The notes: generated by a model not told the origin, from the sequence alone. A stretch of DNA of 23,727 bases from a virus (IMGVR_UViG_2671180283_000006), one strand, 5' to 3'; counted from the first letter of the stretch, positions 8,536 to 23,652 are shown. A program made the numbers and translations.

Positions 8536-10043
8536 TGGCAATTCTTGATGATGTGATTGGCGTTTTTTCACCTGGATGGAAAGCGGCAAGGCTGCGTTCC
8601 CGTGCGGTGATCCAGGCTTATGAGGCCGTAAAAACGACGCGGACACATAAAGCCCGACGGGAGAGCCGAACTGCCGACCAGTTAAGCCAGTACGGGGCCG
8701 TGTCGTTACGTGAGCAGGCCCGTTACCTTGATAACAACCACGATCTGGTCATTGGTGTATTTGACAAGCTGGAAGAACGGGTGGTGGGGAAAAACGGGAT
8801 TATTGTCGAGCCACATCCGGTATTACGCAATGGGGCCATTGCCCGTGATCTGGCAGCGGAGATTCGCACCCGATGGAGTGAATGGTCTGTCAGTCCGGAG
8901 GTCACCGGGCAGTTTACCCGTCCGATGCTGGAACGTCTGATGCTGCGTACCTGGCTGCGCGATGGTGAGGTGTTTGCCCAGATGGTTTCCGGGCGCATAA
9001 ACAGCTTGACGCCTTCTGCCGGTGTTCATTTCTGGCTGGAGGCGCTCGAGCCGGACTTTATTCCCATGACCAGTGATGAGAGCAACAGGCTGAATCAGGG
9101 CGTGTTTGTTGATGACTGGGGGCGTCCCGAAAAATATCTGGTGTATAAAAGCCGTCCCGTATCCGGGCGGCAGATGGAAACCAAAGAAGTGGATGCAGAG
9201 CGAATGCTGCATCTTAAATTTGTTCGCCGTCTGCACCAGATGCGCGGGACGTCTTTGTTGTCCGGTGTGCTGATCCGCCTCAGTGCTCTGAAAGAGTATG
9301 AAGATTCTGAGCTGACTGCAGCAAGGATCGCCGCTGCTCTGGGGATGTACATCCGGAAAGGCGACGGACAGAGCTATGAAACGGATGGTAATGACAGCAA
9401 GGAGAATGAACGCGAGCTTACCATTCAGCCAGGCATTATTTACGACGATCTGAAACCCGGCGAAGAAATCGGAATGGTGAAGTCGGATCGCCCCAATCCT
9501 AACCTTGAAACTTTTCGTAATGGTCAGTTGCGTGCCGTGGCTGCGGGCAGTCGTCTGAGTTTTTCCAGTACAGCGCGCAACTATAACGGCACTTACAGCG
9601 CCCAGCGTCAGGAGCTGGTTGAATCTACTGATGGCTACCTGATCCTGCAGGACTGGTTTATTGGTGCCGTCACCCGCCCGATGTACCGTGCCTGGCTGAA
9701 ACAGGCTGTGGCATCCGGTGTTATCAGGCTACCCCGCGATCTGGACCGATCTTCACTGTATACCGCGGTGTATTCCGGACCGGTGATGCCGTGGATTGAC
9801 CCTGTTAAGGAGGCTGAGGCCTGGAAAATTCAGATTCGTGGTGGAGCGGCGACAGAATCAGACTGGGTACGTGCAGGTGGTCGTAATCCGGATGATGTCA
9901 AACGTCGGCGCAAGGCCGAAATTGATGAAAACCGCAAGCTGGATCTGGTATTTGATACCGATCCGGCCAGTGATAAAGGAGGCAGCAGTGCCGCAACGAA
10001 ACGACAGGAGCCGCAGCACACCGACGACCAGTCCGAAGAATAA
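8535..10043 (+). CDS. Portal protein
   Basis: About 502 aa from ATG overlapping the W stop (TGATG); placed between W and the protease-capsid gene. Track ORF start 8463 is an upstream extension overlapping W. Confidence 0.8.
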   Translation: MAILDDVIGVFSPGWKAARLRSRAVIQAYEAVKTTRTHKARRESRTADQLSQYGAVSLREQARYLDNNHDLVIGVFDKLEERVVGKNGIIVEPHPVLRNGAIARDLAAEIRTRWSEWSVSPEVTGQFTRPMLERLMLRTWLRDGEVFAQMVSGRINSLTPSAGVHFWLEALEPDFIPMTSDESNRLNQGVFVDDWGRPEKYLVYKSRPVSGRQMETKEVDAERMLHLKFVRRLHQMRGTSLLSGVLIRLSALKEYEDSELTAARIAAALGMYIRKGDGQSYETDGNDSKENERELTIQPGIIYDDLKPGEEIGMVKSDRPNPNLETFRNGQLRAVAAGSRLSFSSTARNYNGTYSAQRQELVESTDGYLILQDWFIGAVTRPMYRAWLKQAVASGVIRLPRDLDRSSLYTAVYSGPVMPWIDPVKEAEAWKIQIRGGAATESDWVRAGGRNPDDVKRRRKAEIDENRKLDLVFDTDPASDKGGSSAATKRQEPQHTDDQSEE

Positions 10044-10056
10044 TTCCTGGTTCAGG

Positions 10057-12015
10057 ATGCAGGCAGGTCACCAGAGTGACGCGGATATTTATATTTATGA
10101 CGAGATTGGTTTCTGGGGTGTTACAGCGAAGCAGTTTATCAGTGATCTGAATGCACTGGGCGATATCACCCACATTAATCTCCATATTAATTCACCGGGT
10201 GGCGATGTCTTTGAAGGCATCGCCATTTTTAATGCACTGAAAACACATGGTGCGTCCATTACCGTTTATGTCGACGGTGTGGCGGCGTCAATGGCGTCGG
10301 TCATTGCGATGGTGGGAAACCCGATCATTATGCCGGAAAACTCCTTCATGATGATTCATAAACCATTTGGCTTTACGGGCGGTGATGCGGAGGACATGCG
10401 CACCTATGCCGACCTGCTCGATAAAGTTGAGGCGGTTCTGTTACCCGCTTATGCACAGAAAACCGGGAAAACCACCGATGAAATTGCTGCCATGCTGGCG
10501 GATGAGACCTGGATGTCCGGTGCCGAATGTCTGGCACAGGGATTTGCTGATCAGGTGACACCAGCCGTTAAGGCAATGGCATGTATTCAGTCAAAACGTA
10601 CAGAGGAATTTAAAAAGATGCCGGAATCCATTCGAAACATGATTACTCCGCCACGCAACAGTGCTCCACGCGTACAGGATGATGAACCTGCAGCCTCCCG
10701 GACGCCAGTGCAGGCAGCAGCACCCGTGGTGGATGAAAACAGTATCCGTGCGCAGGTACTGGCAGAGCAAAAAGCGCGTGTAAACGGTATTAATGATCTG
10801 TTTGCCATGTTTGGCGGGCGTTATCAGATGCTGCAGGCCCAGTGTCTTGCCGATCCTGAATGTTCGCTGGAGCAGGCCCGTGAAAAGCTGTTGAACGAGA
10901 TGGGGCGCGAGTCCACGCCATCCAATAAAAATACCCCGGCTCATATTTATGCCGGTAACGGTAATTTTGTGGGGGACGGGATCCGCCAGGCGCTGATGGC
11001 GCGTGCCGGATTTGAAAAAACCGAACGTGATAATGTCTACAACGGGATGACCCTGCGTGAATATGCCCGTATGTCACTAACTGAACGGGGTATTGGGGTT
11101 TCCGGTTATAACCCGATGCAGATGGTCGGTGCGGCGTTCACACACAGTACGTCTGACTTCGGTAATATTCTGCTGGATGTTGCGAACAAAGCCATTCTGC
11201 AGGGCTGGGAAGATGCCCCTGAAACCTATGAACAGTGGACGCGGAAAGGTCAGTTGTCTGATTTTAAAATTGCCCATCGTGTGGGTATGGGGGGCTTCAG
11301 TGCTCTGCGTCAGGTGCGTGAAGGGGCGGAATATAAATACGTCACCACCGGAGATAAACAGGCCACTATTGCACTGGCGACCTATGGCGAGCTGTTCAGT
11401 ATCACCCGTCAGGCCATTATCAATGATGATCTGAATATGCTGACCGATGTCCCGATGAAACTGGGCCGTGCGGCGAAATCCACTATTGCCGATCTGGTTT
11501 ATGCCATTCTGACGTCTAACCCGAAAATCTCCACAGATAATGTAAGTCTGTTCGATAAAGCGAAACATGCAAACGTACTGGAGAGCGCTGCAATGGACGT
11601 GGCATCGCTGGATAAAGCCCGCCAGTTGATGCGCGTTCAGAAAGAGGGGGAGCGTCATCTGAATATTCGTCCTGCGTTCGTACTGGTACCGACGGCGATG
11701 GAGTCTGTTGCTAACCAGGTCATTCGCTCCTCAAGTGTCAAGGGGGCTGACATTAACGCCGGTATTATTAACCCGGTGAAAGATTTTGCGACCGTTATTG
11801 CAGAGCCTCGTCTTGATGATAACAGCCAGACCACCTTCTACCTGGCTGCGTCAAAAGGCTCCGATACGATTGAAGTGGCTTATCTCAACGGTGTGGATAC
11901 GCCATATATTGATCAGATGGAGGGCTTCAGTGTGGATGGCGTGACAACGAAAGTGCGTATTGACGCCGGTGTCGCGCCAGTTGATCACCGCGGTCTGGTG
12001 AAATGTACGGCGTAA
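10057..12015 (+). CDS. Fused prohead protease - scaffold - major capsid protein (Gifsy-2-type tripartite capsid gene)
   Basis: About 652 aa from ATG at 10057; N-terminal ClpP-like serine protease domain (INSPGGDVFEGIAIFNALKTHGASITVYVDGVAASMASVIAMVG), Ala/Pro/Gln-rich linker, C-terminal capsid-like domain of about 330 aa. Confidence 0.8.
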   Translation: MQAGHQSDADIYIYDEIGFWGVTAKQFISDLNALGDITHINLHINSPGGDVFEGIAIFNALKTHGASITVYVDGVAASMASVIAMVGNPIIMPENSFMMIHKPFGFTGGDAEDMRTYADLLDKVEAVLLPAYAQKTGKTTDEIAAMLADETWMSGAECLAQGFADQVTPAVKAMACIQSKRTEEFKKMPESIRNMITPPRNSAPRVQDDEPAASRTPVQAAAPVVDENSIRAQVLAEQKARVNGINDLFAMFGGRYQMLQAQCLADPECSLEQAREKLLNEMGRESTPSNKNTPAHIYAGNGNFVGDGIRQALMARAGFEKTERDNVYNGMTLREYARMSLTERGIGVSGYNPMQMVGAAFTHSTSDFGNILLDVANKAILQGWEDAPETYEQWTRKGQLSDFKIAHRVGMGGFSALRQVREGAEYKYVTTGDKQATIALATYGELFSITRQAIINDDLNMLTDVPMKLGRAAKSTIADLVYAILTSNPKISTDNVSLFDKAKHANVLESAAMDVASLDKARQLMRVQKEGERHLNIRPAFVLVPTAMESVANQVIRSSSVKGADINAGIINPVKDFATVIAEPRLDDNSQTTFYLAASKGSDTIEVAYLNGVDTPYIDQMEGFSVDGVTTKVRIDAGVAPVDHRGLVKCTA

Positions 12016-13686: not shown

Positions 13687-14436
13687 GTGGCAATGACCAC
13701 ACCAAATCCACTGGCAAAAACGAAAGGTGCGGGAACGACGTTCTGGATGTACACCGGCAAGGGCGATGCGTTTGCGAACCCTTTATCGGACACTGACTGG
13801 CTGCGTCTTGCGATGGTGAAGGATCTGCAACCTGGCGAAATGACCGCTGATGCAGAAGATGACACTTATCTCGATGATGAAGATGCAGACTGGAAAACGA
13901 CAACCCAGGGGCAGAAATCCGTTGGTGATACTTCGGCGACGCTGGCCTGGCGTCCGGGTGACAGCGGGCAGAAAAAACTGGTTCAGTTGTTCGACTCCGG
14001 TGAAGTCTGCGCGTTTCGTATCAAATATCCCAACGGCACTGTTGATGTTTTCCGTGGCTGGCTGAGCTCACTGGGTAAAACCATTGCCTCAAAAGACGTG
14101 ATGACCCGCACAGTGAAAATCAGCGGTGTGGGGCGTCCGTATCTGGCAGAGGAAGGCACTGAAACAGTGAGCGTTACCGGGCTGACGGTGGCACCGGCAT
14201 CTGCCAGTGTAAAAGTGGGAGCAACCACCACGCTGACCTTTACAGTAAAACCTGACGGAGCCAGTGACAAAGCGATCAGTGTGCATTCGACAGATCCACA
14301 GACTGCCACGGTGACCCTGAACGGGCTTGTGGCCACGGTGAAAGGCGTGAAGCAGGGCAGTGTCAGCATTGTGGGCATGACTTCTGACGGCGATTTTGTG
14401 GCAGTGGCTGCGGTGGCTGTCAGCGCCGCAGGTTAA
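13687..14436 (+). CDS. V: Major tail protein (lambda gpV-like) with C-terminal Ig-like domain
   Basis: KGAGTTFWMY...ANPLSDTDW...YLDDEDADW...PNGTVDVFRGW closely matches lambda V; GGAGGTGG RBS. Confidence 0.9.
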   Translation: MAMTTPNPLAKTKGAGTTFWMYTGKGDAFANPLSDTDWLRLAMVKDLQPGEMTADAEDDTYLDDEDADWKTTTQGQKSVGDTSATLAWRPGDSGQKKLVQLFDSGEVCAFRIKYPNGTVDVFRGWLSSLGKTIASKDVMTRTVKISGVGRPYLAEEGTETVSVTGLTVAPASASVKVGATTTLTFTVKPDGASDKAISVHSTDPQTATVTLNGLVATVKGVKQGSVSIVGMTSDGDFVAVAAVAVSAAG

Positions 14437-14456
14437 CAGGACGATACTCATCATTT

Positions 14457-14480
14457 GCCCCGGTTATCCGGGGCTTTTTT
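14457..14480 (+). terminator. Intrinsic terminator between V and G
   Basis: gccccgg-ttat-ccggggc followed by tttttt. Confidence 0.6.
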
Positions 14481-14496
14481 GCAGGTGGAGAACATG

Positions 14497-14883
14497 ATGT
14501 TTCTGAAACAGGGCACGTTTAATTATGAAAAGCAGTCCGTGGTGCTCAGTGAGCTGTCCGGGCTGCAGAGAATTGAATATCTGGCGTTTGTTCAGCAGCG
14601 AACGGCAAAGTTTGATGCCGAAGAGGGAGAACTGCCGGAGGCTGAACGACAGATTGCTTTTCTGCGGATGGGGATGGATATCAATGCCTGGCTGGTTTCC
14701 CGCTCACTGTGGAATGCGGAACAGTCTCAGGATGTTGAGACGCTTTGCGCATCCGTTATTACAACATGGTCGTATGATGCCCTGGGAGCGGGGGCGGAGA
14801 TGGTTCTGTCGCTGAGCGGTATGGGAGTCATTGAGAATGCCGGGGATTTGGAGCATGAGGTGCTGACGCCGGAAAAGTCCTGA
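14497..14883 (+). CDS. G: Tail assembly chaperone (lambda gpG-like)
   Basis: MFLKQGTFNYEKQSVVLSELSGLQRIEYLAF parallels lambda G MFLKTESFEHNGVTVTLSELSALQRIEHLAL; track start 14455 is an upstream extension. Confidence 0.8.
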   Translation: MFLKQGTFNYEKQSVVLSELSGLQRIEYLAFVQQRTAKFDAEEGELPEAERQIAFLRMGMDINAWLVSRSLWNAEQSQDVETLCASVITTWSYDALGAGAEMVLSLSGMGVIENAGDLEHEVLTPEKS

Positions 14884-15221
14884 CGCGGGAAATGCAGTTT
14901 GTCATGCGGCTTGCCCGGGAGTTCCGGCGGGCAGACTGGCGGCGGATGCTGTCGGAAATGTCGGCCACTGAGCTTGGTGAGTGGGGCGATTATTTCCGGA
15001 TGCAGAGCTTCAGTGATGTGTGGATGGATGCGCAGTTTGCCTCGCTGAAGGCATTGATCGTGAGAATGGTGTCCGGTAGCAGTGATGCTGCGGTGGCTGA
15101 TTTCAGCCTTTTACCGGAAGAGAACGGGATACCGGAGCGAACGGACGAAGAACTGATGCATCTTGGGGAAGGTATTTCCGGAGGTGTGCGTTATGGACCA
15201 GATAGCCAACCTGGTCATTGA
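14497..15221 (+). CDS. gpGT-like fusion via programmed -1 ribosomal frameshift (T segment 14859-15221)
   Basis: The -1 frame opens at 14859 (stop TGA at 14856-14858) and G ends at 14883, so the slip must occur in 14859-14880; only candidate is CCGGAAAAG (slip on A AAG to AAA). Downstream frame encodes a T-like tail. Confidence 0.55.
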
Positions 15222-18200
15222 TTTGGGGATTGATGCGGCAGAGTTTAAAAATGAAATTCCCCGTATCAAAAACCTTCTGAATGGTGCAGCCAGCGATGCA
15301 GAACGGTCTTCTGCCCGTATGCAGCGTTTTATGGAGCGTCAGACTCAGGCCGCCCGGCAGACAACGCAGGCAGCTTCTTCGGCTGCAACAGCCGCATCCG
15401 TCCATGCGCAGACGGTGGAGAAGAACGCACAGGCTCATGAACGCATGGCCCGCGAGGTGGAGAAAACCCGCCAGCGCATGGAGGCACTGAGCCAGAAAAT
15501 GCGCGAGGAACAGGCGCAGGCCATGGCTCTGGCGGAGGCTCAGGATAAAGCGGCTGCTGCGTTTTATCGTCAGATTGACAGTGTGAAACAGGCCAGTGCG
15601 GGGCTGCAGGAATTACAGCGTATTCAGCAGCAGATCCGACAGGCCAGAAACAGTGGCGGGATTGGTCAGCAGGATTATCTGGCGCTGATTTCTGAGGTTA
15701 CTGCGAAAACTCGTGTTCTTACACAGGCTGAGGAAGAGGCTACCCGACAGAAAGTGGCGTTTATCCGTCAGCTTAAAGAGCAGGCAACCCGCCAGAATCT
15801 TTCTTCTTCTGAGTTGCTTCGTGCTAAGGCTGCCCAGCTGGGGGTAAGCAGTGCTGCAGAAGTGTATATCCGCAAAATGGAGCAGGCAGGAAAAGCCACG
15901 CATTCGCTGGGTCTGAAAAGTGCAGCGGCCCGCCAGGAGATAGGCGTTCTGATAGGTGAACTGGCTCGCGGCAATTTAGGTGCGCTGAGGGGATCCGGGA
16001 TAACGCTGGCTAACCGTGCCGGATGGATAGACACACTGATGTCACCGAAAGGCATGATGCTGGGCGGGGTTATTGGCGGTATTGCCGCGGCCGTCTATGG
16101 TCTGGGTAAAGCCTGGTATGATGGTCAGAAGGAGGGGGAAGAATTTAACCGCCAGTTGTCGCTGACGGGGCATTATGCCGGAGTCACTGCCGGGCAGCTG
16201 TGGACGCTCAGTCGTGCTATTTCCGGGAATGGTATCACGCAACATGCTGCAGCCGGTGCGCTGGCTCAGGTGGTGGGGAGTGGTGCATTTCGTGGAAACG
16301 ATATCGGTATGGTGGCGAGAGCTGCCGCACAGATGGAGCGATCGGTTGGCCAGTCGGTCAGCGATACCATAAATCAGTTTAAGCGGCTGAAGGATGATCC
16401 TGTAAATGCCGCGAAGGCTCTGGACAATGAGCTGCATTTTCTTACTGCCACTCAGCTTGAGCAGATACGCGTCCTTGGGGAACAGGGGCGGTCCAGTGAT
16501 GCGGCACGGATAGCCATGTCTGCACTGGCAGAGGAAACCGGTCGGCGTACTGCGGATATTGATAATAACCTCAATGCGCTGGGCAGTACGCTGAAGTATC
16601 TGTCTGATTTATGGAGTCGTTTCTGGGATGCGGCCATGAATATTGGTCGTGAAGACTCGCTGGATGAACAGATTTCCGCTTTACAGGAGAAAGTGTCGCG
16701 GGCGAAAAGACTCCCCTGGACGGCATCATCTTCTCAGGTTGAGTACGATCAGCAGCGTCTTAACGAGCTTCAGAAGAAAAAACGCCAGAAGGATTTGCAG
16801 GATGCAAAAGAGCAGGCAGAGCAGAATTATCAGGAGCAACAGAAACGCCGTAATGCTGAAAATGCTGCACTGAACCGGATGAATGAAACGGAAGCAGCAC
16901 GACATCAGCGTGAAATTGCGCGTATTAATTCCATGCAGTACGCCGATCAGGCTGTCAGGGATGCGGCGATACAACGTGAAAATGAACGTTACGAGAAAGC
17001 CCTGGCATCCGGTAAGAAAAAAACACGCGAACCCCGTAATGATGAGGCCACCCGGTTATTGCTGCAGTACAGTCAGCAACAGGCACAGGTGGAAGGACAG
17101 ATTGCTGCTGCCAGACAGTCAGCAGGCATTGCCACGGAAAGGATGACAGAAGCGCATAAACAGCTTCTGGCTCTGCAGCAGCGCATCAGCGACCTGGACG
17201 GGAAAAAACTGACGGCAGATGAAAAGAGTGTGCTGGCCCGTAAAGATGAACTGATTCAGGCACTGACGCTGCTGGATGTAAAACAGCAGGAGCTTCAGAA
17301 ACAGACGGCACTCAACGAGCTGAAGAAAAAAACAATTCAGCTGACCAGTCAACTGGCTGAAGAAGAGCGCGCTCAGCGTCAGCAACATGACCTGGATATC
17401 GCCACGGTGGGTATGGGTGATCAGCAGCGGCAGCGATATCAGGTACAACTGAGTCTTCGCCAGAAATACCAGCAACAGCTGGAGCAGTTGAGGCGGGATA
17501 GTGAGCAGAAAGGAACATATAACACGGATGACTACAGAAAGGCCGAGCAGGCGCTGACGGAGAGCCTGAACCGACAACTGAATGAGAATCGCCGTTACTG
17601 GCAACAGCTTGAAGTTGTGCAGGGTAACTGGAAAAACGGAGTCCTGCGTGCATTTCAGAATTTTACCGTGGATGCAGATAATACGGCAGGAACAGCAGAA
17701 CAGGTGTTCTCGTCAGCCTTCAGCAACATGGGAAATGGCCTGGCAACTTTTGTCACTACCGGCAAACTCAATTTCAAATCCTTCACCTCTTCTGTGCTGT
17801 CAGATATGGCGAAAATCCTGGCGCAGGCAACCATGATGAAATCGATAAAAGGGATTGGCAGTGTACTGGGATTTGATCTCAGCAGCCTTTCCCTGAATGC
17901 CAATGGGGGGATTTATCAGTCTGCTGATTTGAGTCGTTACAGTGGCACGGTGGTTAACCGTCCGACGTTTTTTGCTTTTGCAAAAGGCGCGGGTGTGATG
18001 GGGGAAGCGGGACCTGAAGCCATTCTGCCACTGCGTCGTGGTGCTGACGGTAAGCTGGGGGTTGTGGCGGATATTGGTGGTTCAGGTATGGCGATGTTTG
18101 CCCCGCAGTACAACATCGAGATCAATAACGATGGCACGAACGGGCAGATAGGTCCGGCTGCCCTGAAGGTGGTTTATGACCTCGGGAAAAAAGCGGCAGC

Positions 18201-18258
18201 GGACTTTATGCAACAGCAGGCCCGTGATGGTGGTCGGTTAAGTGGAGCATATCGGTAA
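15193..18258 (+). CDS. H: Tail tape measure protein (lambda gpH-like)
   Basis: About 1021 aa from ATG at 15193 with GGAGG upstream; N-terminus MDQIANLVIDLGIDAAEF vs lambda MAEPVGDLVVDLSLDAARF; C-terminus INNDGTNGQIGPAALKVVYD...DGGRLSG matches lambda H; long central coiled-coil. Confidence 0.9.
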   Translation: MDQIANLVIDLGIDAAEFKNEIPRIKNLLNGAASDAERSSARMQRFMERQTQAARQTTQAASSAATAASVHAQTVEKNAQAHERMAREVEKTRQRMEALSQKMREEQAQAMALAEAQDKAAAAFYRQIDSVKQASAGLQELQRIQQQIRQARNSGGIGQQDYLALISEVTAKTRVLTQAEEEATRQKVAFIRQLKEQATRQNLSSSELLRAKAAQLGVSSAAEVYIRKMEQAGKATHSLGLKSAAARQEIGVLIGELARGNLGALRGSGITLANRAGWIDTLMSPKGMMLGGVIGGIAAAVYGLGKAWYDGQKEGEEFNRQLSLTGHYAGVTAGQLWTLSRAISGNGITQHAAAGALAQVVGSGAFRGNDIGMVARAAAQMERSVGQSVSDTINQFKRLKDDPVNAAKALDNELHFLTATQLEQIRVLGEQGRSSDAARIAMSALAEETGRRTADIDNNLNALGSTLKYLSDLWSRFWDAAMNIGREDSLDEQISALQEKVSRAKRLPWTASSSQVEYDQQRLNELQKKKRQKDLQDAKEQAEQNYQEQQKRRNAENAALNRMNETEAARHQREIARINSMQYADQAVRDAAIQRENERYEKALASGKKKTREPRNDEATRLLLQYSQQQAQVEGQIAAARQSAGIATERMTEAHKQLLALQQRISDLDGKKLTADEKSVLARKDELIQALTLLDVKQQELQKQTALNELKKKTIQLTSQLAEEERAQRQQHDLDIATVGMGDQQRQRYQVQLSLRQKYQQQLEQLRRDSEQKGTYNTDDYRKAEQALTESLNRQLNENRRYWQQLEVVQGNWKNGVLRAFQNFTVDADNTAGTAEQVFSSAFSNMGNGLATFVTTGKLNFKSFTSSVLSDMAKILAQATMMKSIKGIGSVLGFDLSSLSLNANGGIYQSADLSRYSGTVVNRPTFFAFAKGAGVMGEAGPEAILPLRRGADGKLGVVADIGGSGMAMFAPQYNIEINNDGTNGQIGPAALKVVYDLGKKAAADFMQQQARDGGRLSGAYR

Positions 18259-20628: not shown

Positions 20629-20643
20629 TATGGAGCGTGAGGA

Positions 20644-23600
20644 ATGGGTAAAGGAAGCAGTAAGGGGCATACCCCGCGCGAAGCGAAGGACAACCTGAAG
20701 TCCACGCAGTTGCTGAGTGTGATTGATGCCATCAGCGAAGGGCCGGTTGAAGGTCCGGTGGATGGATTAAAAAGCGTGCTGCTGAACAGTACGCCGGTGC
20801 TGGACAGTGATGGGAATACCAACATCGCCGGTGTCACGGTGGTGTTCCGGGCTGGTGAGCAGGAGCAGACTCCGCCGGAGGGATTTGAATCCTCCGGCTC
20901 CGAGACGGTGTTGGGTACGGAAGTGAAATACGACACGCCGATCACCCGCGCCATCACGTCGGCAAACATCGACCGACTGCGCTTTACCTTCGGTGTGCAG
21001 GCACTGGTGGAAACCACCTCAAAGGGGGACCGGAATCCGTCGGAAGTTCGCCTGCTGGTTCAGATACAGCGTAATGGTGGCTGGGTGACGGAAAAAGACA
21101 TCACCATTAAGGGCAAAACCACCTCGCAGTATCTGGCCTCGGTGGTGGTGGATAACCTGCCGCCGCGCCCGTTTAATATCCGGATGCGCAGAATGACGCC
21201 GGACAGCACCACAGACCAGCTGCAGAACAAAACGCTCTGGTCGTCATACACCGAAATCATCGATGTGAAACAGTGCTACCCGAACACGGCACTGGTCGGC
21301 GTGCAGGTGGACTCGGAACAGTTCGGCAGCCAGCAGGTGAGCCGTAATTATCATCTTCGCGGGCGCATTCTGCAGGTGCCGTCGAACTATAACCCGCAGA
21401 CGCGGCAATACAGCGGTATCTGGGACGGAACGTTTAAGCCAGCATACAGCAACAACATGGCCTGGTGTCTGTGGGATATGCTGACCCATCCGCGCTACGG
21501 CATGGGGAAGCGTCTCGGTGCGGCGGATGTGGACAAATGGGCGCTGTATGTCATCGGCCAGAATTGCGACCAGTCGGTGCCGGATGGCTTTGGTGGCACG
21601 GAGCCGCGCATCACCTGTAATGCCTGGCTGACCACACAGCGCAAGGCGTGGGATGTTCTCAGTGATTTCTGCTCGGCGATGCGCTGTATGCCGGTATGGA
21701 ACGGGCAGACGCTGACGTTCGTGCAGGACCGACCGTCGGATAAGGTGTGGACCTATAACCGCAGTAATGTGGTGATGCCGGATGATGGCGCGCCGTTCCG
21801 CTACAGCTTCAGTGCCCTGAAGGACCGTCATAATGCCGTTGAGGTGAACTGGATTGACCCGGATAACGGCTGGGAGACGGCGACAGAGCTTGTGGAGGAC
21901 ACGCAGGCCATTGCCCGTTACGGTCGTAACGTCACGAAGATGGATGCCTTTGGCTGTACCAGCCGGGGGCAGGCACACCGCGCCGGGCTGTGGCTGATTA
22001 AAACGGAACTGCTGGAAACGCAGACCGTGGACTTCAGCGTGGGTGCCGAAGGGCTTCGCCATGTACCAGGTGATGTCATTGAAATCTGTGATGATGACTA
22101 TGCGGGGATCAGCACCGGCGGGCGCGTGCTGGCGGTGAACAGCCAGACCCGGACGCTGACGCTCGACCGTGAAATCACGCTGCCATCCTCCGGTACCACG
22201 CTGATAAGCCTGGTTGACGGAAGTGGCAATCCGGTCAGCGTGGAGGTCCAGTCCGTCACCGACGGCGTGAAGGTAAAAGTGAGCCGTGTTCCTGACGGCG
22301 TTGCCGGATACAGCGTGTGGGGGCTGAAGCTGCCGACGCTGCGCCAGCGCCTGTTCCGCTGCGTGAGTATCCGTGAGAACGACGACGGCACGTATGCCAT
22401 CACCGCCGTGCAGCATGTACCGGAAAAAGAAGCCATCGTGGATAACGGGGCGCACTTTGACGGCGACCAGAGCGGCACGGTGAATGGTGTCACGCCGCCA
22501 GCAGTGCAGCACCTGACTGCCGAAGTCACCGCAGACAGCGGGGAATATCAGGTGCTGGCGCGCTGGGACACGCCGAAGGTGGTGAAGGGGGTGAGCTTTA
22601 TGCTTCGCCTGACCGTAACAGCGGACGACGGCAGTGAGCGGCTGGTCAGCACGGCCCGGACGACAGAAACCACATACCGCTTCAGGCAGCTGGCGCTGGG
22701 GCGTTACACGCTGACGGTCCGGGCGGTAAATGCGTGGGGACAGCAGGGCGATCCGGCATCGGTATCGTTCCGGATTGCCGCACCGGCAGCGCCGTCGCAG
22801 ATTGAGCTGACACCCGGGTATTTTCAGATAACCGCCACGCCGCATCTTGCGGTTTATGATCCGACGGTACAGTTTGAGTTCTGGTTCTCGGAAAAGCGGA
22901 TTGCGGATATCAGGCAGGTTGAAACCAGCGCGCGTTATCTTGGTACGGCGCTGTACTGGATAGCCGCCAGTATCAATATCAGGCCGGGCCATGATTATTA
23001 TTTTTACGTTCGCAGTGTGAATACCGTTGGCAAATCGGCATTCGTGGAGGCTGTTGGTCGGCCGAGTGATGATGCTTCCGGCTATCTGGATTTTTTCAAA
23101 GGCGAGATAGGGAAAAGCCATCTGGCTCAGGAGTTGTGGACGCAGATTGATAACGGTCAGCTTGCGCCTGACCTGGCTGAAATCAGGACGTCCATTACGG
23201 ATGTCAGCAATGAAATCACACAGACCGTCAATAAGAAACTGGAAGATCAGAGTGCAGCGATCCAGCAGATACAGAAGGTTCAGGTTGATACAAATAATAA
23301 CCTGAACAGCATGTGGGCTGTGAAGCTGCAGCAGATGCAGGACGGACGCCTTTATATCGCGGGTATCGGTGCCGGTATTGAGAATACGCCAGCAGGAATG
23401 CAGAGTCAGGTGCTGCTGGCGGCAGACAGGATTGCGATGATTAATCCTGCAAATGGCAACACAAAACCGATGTTTGTTGGTCAGGGTGATCAGATATTCA
23501 TGAATGAAGTGTTCCTGAAATATCTGACGGCTCCCACCATTACCAGCGGCGGTAATCCTCCTGCATTTTCCCTGACACCGGACGGAAAGCTGACCGCTAA

Positions 23601-23652
23601 AAATGCAGATATCAGTGGCAGTGTGAATGCGAACTGTAACCGGCTCATTTAA
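20644..23652 (+). CDS. J: Central tail fibre / host specificity protein J, C-terminally truncated relative to lambda J
   Basis: 1002 aa; near-identical to lambda J from [24 protein letters not shown] through ...[14 protein letters not shown], then ends as CNRLI-stop, whereas lambda J (about 1132 aa as recalled) continues with the receptor-binding domain. Confidence 0.9.

What the first reader, a model, noticed from the sequence alone, without database searches (positions are those of the whole stretch)
14856..14895. G-T frameshift window of only eight codons with a non-canonical slippery site
The T reading frame (-1 relative to G) is closed by TGA at 14856-14858 and G ends at 14881-14883, so any fusion must form within 14859-14880. 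Lambda's G GGA AAG is absent there; the only slip-prone sequence is CCGGAAAAG (G GAA AAG, clean A-site slip AAG to AAA, imperfect P-site re-pairing). A lambda-like GGGAAA lies at 14887-14892, just after the G stop where it cannot act in the G frame. This suggests a mutated or relocated frameshift signal, possibly with altered G to GT ratio.
Basis: seen in the sequence. Interest (0 to 1): 0.45.

Follow-up and report, generated by a model that had tools for sequence, protein, structure and literature searches.

The report
Ordinary lambda-type G-T tail frameshift site
This is the usual programmed -1 ribosomal frameshift site that lambda-like phages use to make a little G-T tail-assembly fusion protein; its GGAAAAG slip sequence is the commonest natural variant in this gene family, not a damaged or relocated copy of lambda's GGGAAAG.

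Summary
G (14494-14883) ends at TGA 14881-83. The -1 (T) frame is open only from 14859. The only slip-prone sequence in that 22-nt overlap is G GAA AAG (14871-14877).

The interpretation of a mutated or relocated signal is not supported.
- The window is an mEp460/cdtI/Ayreon-type E. coli prophage. The junction is identical in 83/83 close relatives.
- In 30 non-redundant G/T junctions from Enterobacterales prophages and phages, 25 carry G GAA AAG and 5 carry lambda's G GGA AAG.
- Six of the seven heptamer positions are invariant while the flanks vary.
- The T-frame protein aligns without a gap from the slip site onward in every junction, so the site sits at the position homologous to lambda's.
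- G stops 0, 1 or 5 codons after AAG and overlaps range from 13 to 160 nt, so a 22-nt window is ordinary.
- The phage N15 GenBank record already annotates GGAAAAG as the -1 slippery sequence.

No conserved downstream RNA structure was found. An SD-like GAGGUG lies upstream at dnaX-like spacing, but it is not significant. Whether the G:GT ratio differs from lambda's cannot be computed.

Verdict: already known, low interest.

The parts
13687..14436 (+). Major tail tube gene (lambda V homologue with C-terminal Ig-like domain); upstream neighbour that defines the gene-order context.
   Evidence: Pfam Phage_TTP_12 6e-67 and Big_2 2e-11.
14457..14480 (+). Intrinsic terminator-like hairpin (GCCCCGG TTAT CCGGGGC followed by TTTTTT) between V and G.
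   Evidence: Terminator scan. Annotated as a terminator at the same place in mEp460 and Ayreon and in N15.
14494..14883 (+). Gene G, tail assembly chaperone (129 aa), the product of standard decoding.
   Evidence: Pfam Phage_TAC_2 9e-40. NCBIfam TIGR01674 phage_lambda_G equivalog 1.9e-55. Annotated start in Ayreon, mEp460 and RefSeq.
14856..14858 (+). TGA that closes the -1 (T) frame upstream; 5' limit of the frameshift window.
14857..14862 (+). SD-like GAGGUG. GAGG ends 10 nt before the heptamer, the same spacing as the dnaX AGGGAG stimulator. A possible but unproven frameshift stimulator.
   Evidence: Anti-SD duplex -6.9 kcal/mol. An equally strong site occurs by chance in 8% of comparable spans of this window. 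GAGG at this register is present in only 8/30 non-redundant relatives. The dnaX spacing is read from the mRNA sequence in PMC6924986. The 9-14 nt rule is from PMC5009743.
14871..14877 (+). Slip site G GAA AAG. Inferred events: tRNA-Lys slips from AAG to AAA in the A site, and tRNA-Glu slips from GAA to GGA in the P site (G:U at the second position).
   Evidence: The only slip-prone motif in the overlap. Identical in 83/83 close loci. Positions 1, 2 and 4-7 are invariant in 30/30 non-redundant junctions. Codon choice departs from the background of the same genes. The same heptamer is annotated as the slippery sequence in N15.
14881..14883 (+). G stop codon (TGA), one codon after the slip site; 3' limit of the frameshift window.
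   Evidence: In the family the stop lies 0, 1 or 5 codons after AAG.
14877..15221 (+). T segment, read in the -1 frame from GTC 14877-14879 to the stop at 15219-15221 (114 aa). Expressed only as the C-terminal part of the 242-aa G-T fusion.
   Evidence: Pfam Phage_tail_T 5e-15. The modelled fusion hits TIGR01674 (residues 2-129) and TIGR01715 phage_lam_T (residues 133-239, full profile). The T parts of all junctions align without gaps from the slip site.
15193..18258 (+). Tape measure gene (lambda H homologue); downstream neighbour. Its start overlaps the end of T by 29 nt.
   Evidence: Pfam TMP_2 2.7e-49 and Tape_meas_lam_C 3e-22. Annotated start in relatives.

Best explanation
This is the programmed -1 ribosomal frameshift site of a lambda-type tail assembly chaperone gene pair in an mEp460/cdtI/Ayreon-type E. 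coli prophage. Most ribosomes read G to its stop at 14881-83 and make the 129-aa chaperone. A small fraction slip back one base on G GAA AAG (14871-77), continue in the T frame, and make a 242-aa G-T fusion (...TPEK|VLTREMQFVMRLAREF...). By analogy with lambda, this fusion links the tape measure protein to the major tail protein.

Shown here: gene order V-G-T-H, homology of both halves, the single possible slip site, its strict nucleotide-level conservation, and its fixed position relative to the T domain.

Inferred: that the shift is a tandem slip. In this model the A-site tRNA-Lys (mnm5s2UUU) moves from AAG to AAA, and the P-site tRNA-Glu moves from GAA to GGA with a G:U pair at the second position. 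The efficiency is expected to be low (a few per cent or less). The shift needs no conserved RNA structure. The upstream GAGGUG may give a modest boost in this lineage.
For: Family membership and context:
- Pfam and NCBIfam hits identify V, G, T and H.
- The window is 97.4-99.7% identical to the 17 matching phage records, among them mEp460, cdtI and Ayreon.
- Lambda-type phage O276 annotates the G-T join.
- Gifsy-2 annotates T as part of a frameshift hybrid.
- N15 annotates GGAAAAG as the 'slippery sequence for -1 translational frameshift'.

Selection on nucleotides:
- The heptamer is identical in 83/83 close loci.
- G GAA AAG occurs in 45 and G GGA AAG in 8 of 53 distinct junctions. In the non-redundant set the split is 25 and 5.
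- Lys is AAG in 30/30 junctions, against 35% of Lys codons elsewhere in the same G genes.
- Glu is GAA in 25/25, against 57% elsewhere.
- The preceding codon ends in G in 30/30, although it encodes Pro, Ala, Leu or Thr; the background is 32-57%.
- Gifsy-2 G is only 55-57% identical in protein yet shares ACG CCG GAA AAG TCC TGA exactly.

Position:
- The T-frame proteins align with no gap from the first post-slip codon in all junctions.

Precedent for the non-canonical P-site codon:
- The review PMC5009743 lists 'G_GA' among known departures from X_XX, and A_AAG as the most shift-prone tetramer in E. coli (PMC4066793).
Against: - No protein-level evidence for a G-T fusion in this phage group was found. 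Every GenBank and RefSeq record examined for the group annotates T as a separate CDS.
- In a reconstituted E. coli system, AUG GAA AAG gave mainly 0-frame product. It was chosen by the authors as the unfavourable sequence because of the second-position mismatch (PMC6924986).
- Tetramer-only A_AAG sites need a strong stimulator in vivo (PMC4066793), and no conserved stimulator was found here.
- In-frame G GAA AAG also occurs in another long ORF of the window (22890), so the heptamer alone is evidently tolerated and cannot be very slippery.
Confidence: 0.85

Rival explanations
1. Same frameshift, different mechanics. Only the tRNA-Lys slips (a single-tRNA A_AAG tetramer shift) and the P-site tRNA-Glu does not re-pair. 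Useful efficiency then depends on a stimulator such as the upstream SD-like GAGGUG.
For: [quoted passage not shown] A_AAG is the best tetramer in E. coli but needs a stimulator (PMC4066793). GAGG lies 10 nt upstream, as in dnaX.
Against: Heptamer position 1 is G in 30/30 non-redundant junctions across four different codons and amino acids, against 32-57% background. This is what tandem re-pairing on GGA predicts and what a pure tetramer model does not require. GAGG is absent from 22/30 relatives that carry a conserved heptamer. No conserved downstream structure exists.
Confidence: 0.2
2. T is translated on its own from ATG 14892, as annotated in GenBank and RefSeq, and no fusion is made.
For: T is annotated as a separate CDS in mEp460, Tritos and RefSeq E. 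coli. An ATG exists at 14892-14894 with GGGA three bases upstream.
Against: The Met at that column is confined to this lineage and one other. Relatives have Leu, Arg, His or Val there. T-frame conservation runs without a gap back to the slip site. The spacing of GGGA to the ATG is too short for a normal RBS. Ayreon annotates yet another start, which shows the starts are arbitrary calls. From general knowledge of Levin et al. 1993 (cited in PMC5009743), lambda T is made only as G-T.
Confidence: 0.05
3. One reading: a degenerated or relocated lambda signal (G GGA AAG mutated to G GAA AAG, with the 'real' GGGAAA displaced past the stop), that is, a decaying prophage feature.
For: The sequence differs from lambda by one base. 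GGGAAA occurs 10 nt downstream. The in vitro slipperiness of G GAA AAG is low.
Against: G GAA AAG is the majority state across species and is invariant in 83/83 close relatives. It is at the homologous position. It is present in viable phages: N15, phi80, mEp460 and Ayreon. The downstream GGGAAA is CGG GAA in the T frame and is out of register for either frame.
Confidence: 0.03
4. The fusion arises by transcriptional slippage (RNA polymerase stuttering on the A run) rather than by ribosomal slippage.
For: An A run is present at 14873-14876.
Against: The run is only four A's. Known slippage-prone runs are considerably longer (general knowledge). The invariant AAG and the preceding G are features of tRNA re-pairing, not of polymerase slippage.
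Confidence: 0.01

Closest known systems
Phage lambda G / G-T programmed -1 frameshift (Levin, Hendrix & Casjens 1993; the conserved tail assembly chaperone frameshift of Xu, Hendrix & Duda 2004)
   Same: Same gene order V-G-T-H. Both halves are homologous (TIGR01674 and TIGR01715). The T ORF is in the -1 frame. The slip site is at the same position relative to the T domain. The A-site codon is the same (AAG to AAA). No conserved downstream structure is present.
   Different: The P-site codon is GAA (Glu) instead of GGA (Gly), so re-pairing on GGA has a G:U at the second position. G stops 1 codon rather than 5 codons after the slip site. The overlap is 22 nt against 61 nt in lambda.
Phage N15 genes 14/15 (also phi80, mEp043, Gifsy-2)
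   Same: Identical heptamer GGAAAAG at the homologous place. In N15 it is explicitly annotated as the slippery sequence for the -1 frameshift. Gifsy-2 shares the whole ACGCCGGAAAAGTCCTGA, including the stop one codon after the slip site.
   Different: N15, phi80 and mEp043 keep the lambda-like five codons between slip site and G stop. The G proteins are only 34-57% identical to the window's.
E. coli dnaX -1 frameshift (A AAA AAG with an upstream SD-like AGGGAG and a downstream hairpin)
   Same: The A-site codon AAG is read by the single tRNA-Lys. In this window an SD-like GAGG lies 10 nt upstream, the same spacing as in dnaX.
   Different: No supported downstream hairpin. The SD-like element is not conserved across the family and is not statistically unusual. 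The expected efficiency is far lower than the ~50% of dnaX. The shift extends the protein rather than truncating it.
Non-canonical 'G_GA' heptamers and NNA_AAG hexamers (for example G_GAU_UUY of insect-specific flaviviruses, G_CGA_AAG of IS1222), as reviewed in PMC5009743
   Same: The P-site codon does not fit X_XXY, but the first base of the heptamer still matches. The A_AAG A-site slip is the same.
   Different: Those examples are in other hosts or elements and usually have a strong 3' stimulator.

Membership tests
Lambda-type tail assembly chaperone G / G-T programmed -1 frameshift | Two overlapping ORFs located between the major tail protein gene and the tape measure gene | tested here: met
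   V 13687-14436, G 14494-14883, T frame 14859-15221, H 15193-18258.
Lambda-type tail assembly chaperone G / G-T programmed -1 frameshift | The upstream ORF is a gpG homologue | tested here: met
   PF06894 9e-40. TIGR01674 equivalog 186.6 bits against a cut-off of 74.45.
Lambda-type tail assembly chaperone G / G-T programmed -1 frameshift | The downstream ORF is in the -1 frame, is a gpT homologue, and has no conserved start of its own | tested here: met
   PF06223 5e-15. TIGR01715 134.1 bits against a cut-off of 77.35. The frame relation is shown. The Met at 14892 is not conserved and the alignment is gap-free from the slip site.
Lambda-type tail assembly chaperone G / G-T programmed -1 frameshift | A conserved slip-prone sequence lies inside the overlap | tested here: met
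   G GAA AAG at 14871-14877. It is invariant in close relatives and conserved at 6/7 positions in 30 non-redundant junctions with non-background codon choice.
Lambda-type tail assembly chaperone G / G-T programmed -1 frameshift | A G-T fusion is actually produced at a low, fixed ratio and is required for tail assembly | not testable with these tools
   Needs expression plus western blot or mass spectrometry, and phage genetics.
Canonical X XXY YYZ tandem-slippage heptamer | Positions 1-3 are identical, so the P-site tRNA re-pairs with only a wobble-position change | tested here: not met
   Positions 1-3 are G, G, A. Re-pairing of tRNA-Glu on GGA has a second-position G:U, described as a mismatch in PMC6924986. 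The site belongs to the known 'G_GA' class of departures (PMC5009743).
Canonical X XXY YYZ tandem-slippage heptamer | Positions 4-6 are identical and, in E. coli, the A-site tRNA re-pairs as cognate (A AAG) | tested here: met
   AAAG at 14874-14877. A_AAG is the top tetramer in E. coli (PMC4066793).
dnaX-type stimulated -1 frameshift | An SD-like sequence lies 9-14 nt upstream of the shift site | tested here: inconclusive
   GAGG ends 10 nt upstream and GAGGUG pairs with the anti-SD at -6.9 kcal/mol. However, chance expectation is 8% and the element is present in only 8/30 relatives.
dnaX-type stimulated -1 frameshift | A stable stem-loop or pseudoknot lies 5-9 nt downstream | tested here: not met
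   Window folds give z = -0.96 and +0.05 against shuffles. The family consensus structure is -1.26 kcal/mol with no covarying pairs. There is no Rfam hit.

The most novel reading that the evidence does not exclude
The slip site that dominates natural lambda-type G-T junctions (G GAA AAG, 25 of 30 non-redundant junctions) is one that a reconstituted E. coli translation system classes as essentially non-slippery. If that holds in vivo, one of two things follows. These phages may run tail assembly at a much lower GT:G ratio than lambda's roughly 1:30. Alternatively, they may rely on an unrecognised stimulator, such as tolerance of a second-position G:U by mnm5s2U-modified tRNA-Glu in the P site, lineage-specific SD-like elements such as GAGGUG here, or the closely following stop codon. 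This would also make both slipping tRNAs targets of the same s2U34 modification pathway that is known to tune lambda's frameshift.
Probability: 0.2. Interest if true: 0.4.

Novelty: already known. Interest (0 to 1): 0.12.

Why it matters
It matters little for discovery. It mainly corrects an expectation: lambda's G GGA AAG is the textbook case but the minority variant, and G GAA AAG is the norm among enterobacterial lambda-type tail modules.

There is a practical consequence for annotation. None of the records for this phage group examined here (Ayreon, mEp460, Tritos and one RefSeq E. coli genome) joins G and T. They give T arbitrary starts instead, and the module matches 1848 of 5426 complete E. 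coli genomes. Frameshift predictors restricted to XXXYYYZ motifs will also miss it.

A measured efficiency for G GAA AAG against G GGA AAG in vivo would be a small but useful datum for models of P-site re-pairing.

Tried and rejected
- Sequencing error or indel restoring a canonical heptamer: rejected. The junction is identical in 83/83 independent close loci, and the region matches 1848 complete E. coli genomes.
- Downstream stimulatory RNA structure: not supported. Single-sequence folds are not better than shuffles, RNAalifold over 30 diverse junctions finds nothing, and Rfam finds nothing relevant.
- SD-like stimulator as a family feature: not supported. GAGG is present in 8/30 junctions (8/25 of GAA sites against 0/5 of GGA sites, too few to test) and chance expectation is 8%.
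- The GGGAAA after the stop as a displaced signal: rejected. It is out of register in both the G and T frames and encodes Arg-Glu of T.
- Literature search for an explicit discussion or measurement of G GAA AAG in phage tail genes: none found in the held library. Xu et al. 2004 is not held. The only direct measurement found is the in vitro control in PMC6924986.
- Uniqueness of the 7-mer: rejected as an argument. There are 9 copies in the window against 3.6 expected.

Full report
**1. Checking the observation**

The sequence at 14840-14900 reads CCGGGGATTTGGAGCATGAGGTGCTGACGCCGGAAAAGTCCTGACGCGGGAAATGCAGTTT.

- In the G frame it reads ...CAT GAG GTG CTG ACG CCG GAA AAG TCC TGA, with the stop at 14881-14883.
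- In the -1 frame there is a TGA at 14856-14858. That frame then stays open to the stop at 15219-15221.
- The overlap in which a fusion can form is therefore 14859-14880 (22 nt).
- The only sequence in that overlap on which a tRNA can re-pair one base back is G GAA AAG at 14871-14877.
- GGGAAA is present at 14887-14892, after the G stop.

One addition concerns the start of G. G starts at ATG 14494, as annotated in relatives. The TTG at 14455 reported by the ORF lister lies inside a terminator hairpin.

As a bare 7-mer, GGAAAAG is not unusual. The window holds 9 copies against 3.6 expected, and the motif is in frame in at least one other long ORF (22890). Its meaning therefore has to come from context and conservation.

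**2. What the locus is**

The flanking genes are the lambda tail module.
- Lambda-type tail tube protein with an Ig-like domain: 13687-14436.
- gpG chaperone (PF06894, 9e-40).
- gpT (PF06223, 5e-15).
- Lambda-type tape measure protein: 15193-18258.

I modelled the fusion made by slipping at AAG. It has 128 residues from G followed by 114 from T, with the junction ...VLTPEK|VLTREMQFVMRLAREF... This 242-aa protein hits both NCBIfam equivalog models well above their cut-offs. These are TIGR01674 phage_lambda_G (residues 2-129) and TIGR01715 phage_lam_T (residues 133-239, full profile length).

At the DNA level, window 14455-15225 is 97.4-99.7% identical to the 17 matching phage records. These include Escherichia phages Ayreon, mEp460, cdtI and Tritos. 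The same stretch matches 1848 of 5426 complete E. coli genomes. It is a very common prophage tail module.

**3. Is the signal mutated or relocated?**

No.

*Close relatives.* The stretch 14845-14900 is identical in 77 of 83 loci, and the slip site with its surroundings is identical in all 83. This excludes a sequencing error or a private mutation.

*Distant relatives.*
- Gifsy-2 has a G protein only 55-57% identical. It carries exactly ACG CCG GAA AAG TCC TGA while the flanks differ.
- phi80 and mEp043 have GCG GAA AAG where lambda-type O276 has GCG GGA AAG.
- N15 has GCG GAA AAG. Its GenBank record marks those seven bases (10027-10033) as the 'slippery sequence for -1 translational frameshift'.

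*Species-dereplicated scan.* A scan of bacterial genomes with a G-protein alignment returned 68 loci.
- After removing duplicates there were 53 distinct junctions: 45 with G GAA AAG and 8 with G GGA AAG.
- After thinning to below 90% nucleotide identity there were 30 junctions: 25 with G GAA AAG and 5 with G GGA AAG.

Lambda's heptamer is therefore the minority form.

*Position.* The T-frame proteins, translated from the first codon after the slip, align without a single gap through the conserved F..LAREF.R.DWR motif in every junction. The slip site is therefore at a fixed distance from the T domain, and the window's site is exactly homologous to lambda's.

*G stop and overlap length.* What varies is where G stops.
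- 0 codons after AAG in four Proteus junctions, all G GAA AAG.
- 1 codon after in 18 junctions (14 G GAA AAG, 4 G GGA AAG). These include this window, Gifsy-2 and prophages of Serratia, Edwardsiella, Xenorhabdus, Erwinia and Yokenella.
- 5 codons after in 31 junctions (27 G GAA AAG, 4 G GGA AAG). The lambda-type loci are here, and N15 has the same spacing.

The overlap ranges from 13 to 160 nt. A 22-nt window is ordinary.

*The GGGAAA after the stop.* It is CGG GAA (Arg-Glu) in the T frame. It is out of register as a heptamer in both the G and T frames. It is coincidental.

**4. Evidence that the heptamer is selected as nucleotides**

In the 30 non-redundant junctions, positions 1, 2 and 4-7 of the heptamer are invariant. 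The upstream 45 nt are highly variable.

| Feature at the slip site | At the site | Elsewhere in the same G genes |
|---|---|---|
| Lys codon is AAG | 30/30 | 35% of Lys codons |
| Glu codon is GAA | 25/25 | 57% of Glu codons |
| Preceding codon ends in G | 30/30 | 32-57% |

The preceding codon is GCG, CCG, CTG or ACG, encoding four different amino acids. These lineages are not independent, so I give no p-value, but the pattern is uniform.

The invariant first G is what tandem re-pairing predicts, because tRNA-Glu must find G at the first position of GGA. A pure single-tRNA A_AAG slip would not require it.

**5. Mechanism and stimulators**

E. coli has one tRNA-Lys, and it pairs better with AAA than with AAG. 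A_AAG is the most shift-prone tetramer in E. coli (PMC4066793; PMC5009743). The P-site move from GAA to GGA leaves a G:U at the second position. The review PMC5009743 lists 'G_GA' among known departures from X_XX.

Against high efficiency:
- Peng et al. (PMC6924986) used AUG GAA AAG as their unfavourable control. They obtained mainly 0-frame product, whereas AUG GGA AAG shifted readily when EF-G was limiting.
- Sharma et al. found that tetramers need a strong stimulator.

I looked for stimulators.
- Downstream folds are no better than shuffles (z = -0.96 and +0.05).
- RNAalifold over the 30 junctions gives -1.26 kcal/mol with four non-covarying pairs.
- Rfam finds nothing relevant.
- Upstream, GAGGUG (14857-62) can pair with the anti-SD at -6.9 kcal/mol. 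GAGG ends 10 nt before the heptamer. This equals the dnaX spacing, read from the dnaX-mimic mRNA, and lies within the 9-14 nt rule.
- However, an equally strong site occurs by chance in 8% of comparable spans of this window. GAGG at that register is present in only 8/30 relatives.

I therefore treat GAGGUG as a possible lineage-specific enhancer, not as part of the conserved signal. From memory only, not verified here: Levin et al. 1993 reported about 4% frameshifting in lambda without a classical downstream structure. The roughly 96:4 figure is quoted in PMC3296357.

**6. Rivals**

*Independent initiation of T at ATG 14892.* This is what the examined records for this group annotate, and Ayreon uses yet another start. 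The comparative data contradict it.
- That Met is Leu, Arg, His or Val in other lineages.
- T-frame conservation runs back to the slip site.

*Transcriptional slippage.* This is implausible on a run of four A's.

*A decayed signal.* This is contradicted by its majority status and by its presence in viable phages.

**7. Comparison, novelty and verdict**

The locus is a member of the lambda G/G-T programmed frameshift family. It carries the N15/phi80/Gifsy-2-type heptamer and the Gifsy-2-type early G stop. It fails the strict X XXY YYZ definition but belongs to a recognised class of near-cognate heptamers.

The heptamer is already annotated as the slip site in a public record dating from the N15 genome, so the feature is already known.

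The residual point of interest is quantitative. The commonest natural variant is one that behaves as poorly slippery in vitro. Its in vivo efficiency, and whether it depends on context, appear not to be documented in the literature I could search. Xu et al. 2004 was not available.

Interest: low.

Noticed in passing
window 14457-14480: A strong intrinsic terminator-like hairpin (7 G-C pairs followed by TTTTTT) sits between the major tail gene V and G. The same feature is annotated in mEp460, Ayreon and N15. It would lower transcription of G, T, H and the distal tail genes relative to V.
   Followed up: partly
window 9796-12015 (+): A single 739-aa ORF combines a ClpP-type protease domain (residues 95-255, 8e-36) with a phage major capsid domain (residues 441-736, 1e-54). 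This looks like a prohead protease-capsid fusion gene. The true start codon was not examined.
   Followed up: partly
window 14892-15221; L001, L002, L003, L157: None of the records examined for this phage group (Ayreon, mEp460 and Tritos in GenBank; one PGAP-annotated RefSeq E. coli genome) joins G and T. T is given an independent start (ATG 14892, or a later one in Ayreon). The homologous lambda-type O276 record has the join and N15 marks the slippery sequence. This looks like a systematic annotation gap in a module that matches 1848 of 5426 complete E. coli genomes.
   Followed up: partly
L131-L143 (genome-contig hits): Lambda-identical G genes (all 33% identical to the query with identical statistics) appear on short or low-coverage contigs. 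Several are ~48.4 kb contigs. The assemblies are labelled Kitasatospora, Pseudomonas, Oceanobacillus, Neobacillus, Shewanella, Leeuwenhoekiella, Chromatium, Pseudoxanthomonas, Psychrobacter and Paenibacillus. This is almost certainly lambda control-DNA contamination of those assemblies.
   Followed up: no
L088 (JAEWTL010000010.1) and H59 (MW057783.1): A contig binned as 'MAG: Bacillota bacterium' carries this E. coli prophage G gene at 98% identity, probably a binning error. A record named 'Campylobacter phage CJLB-4' (48,361 bp) has a lambda-like G at lambda-like coordinates (9630-9989), which suggests it is lambda itself.
   Followed up: no
window 22890-22896 (also 2724 and 5972): G GAA AAG also occurs in frame inside the ~1000-codon ORF 20641-23652, and possibly in two shorter ORFs. 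There the -1 frame closes within about 10 codons after the motif. The heptamer by itself is evidently tolerated inside genes, which is consistent with low intrinsic slipperiness.
   Followed up: partly
window 15180-15221: The tape measure gene starts at ATG 15193, behind a strong GGAGGTG Shine-Dalgarno sequence at 15180-15186. It overlaps the last 29 nt of the T frame, so ribosomes finishing G-T terminate inside the start of H.
   Followed up: no
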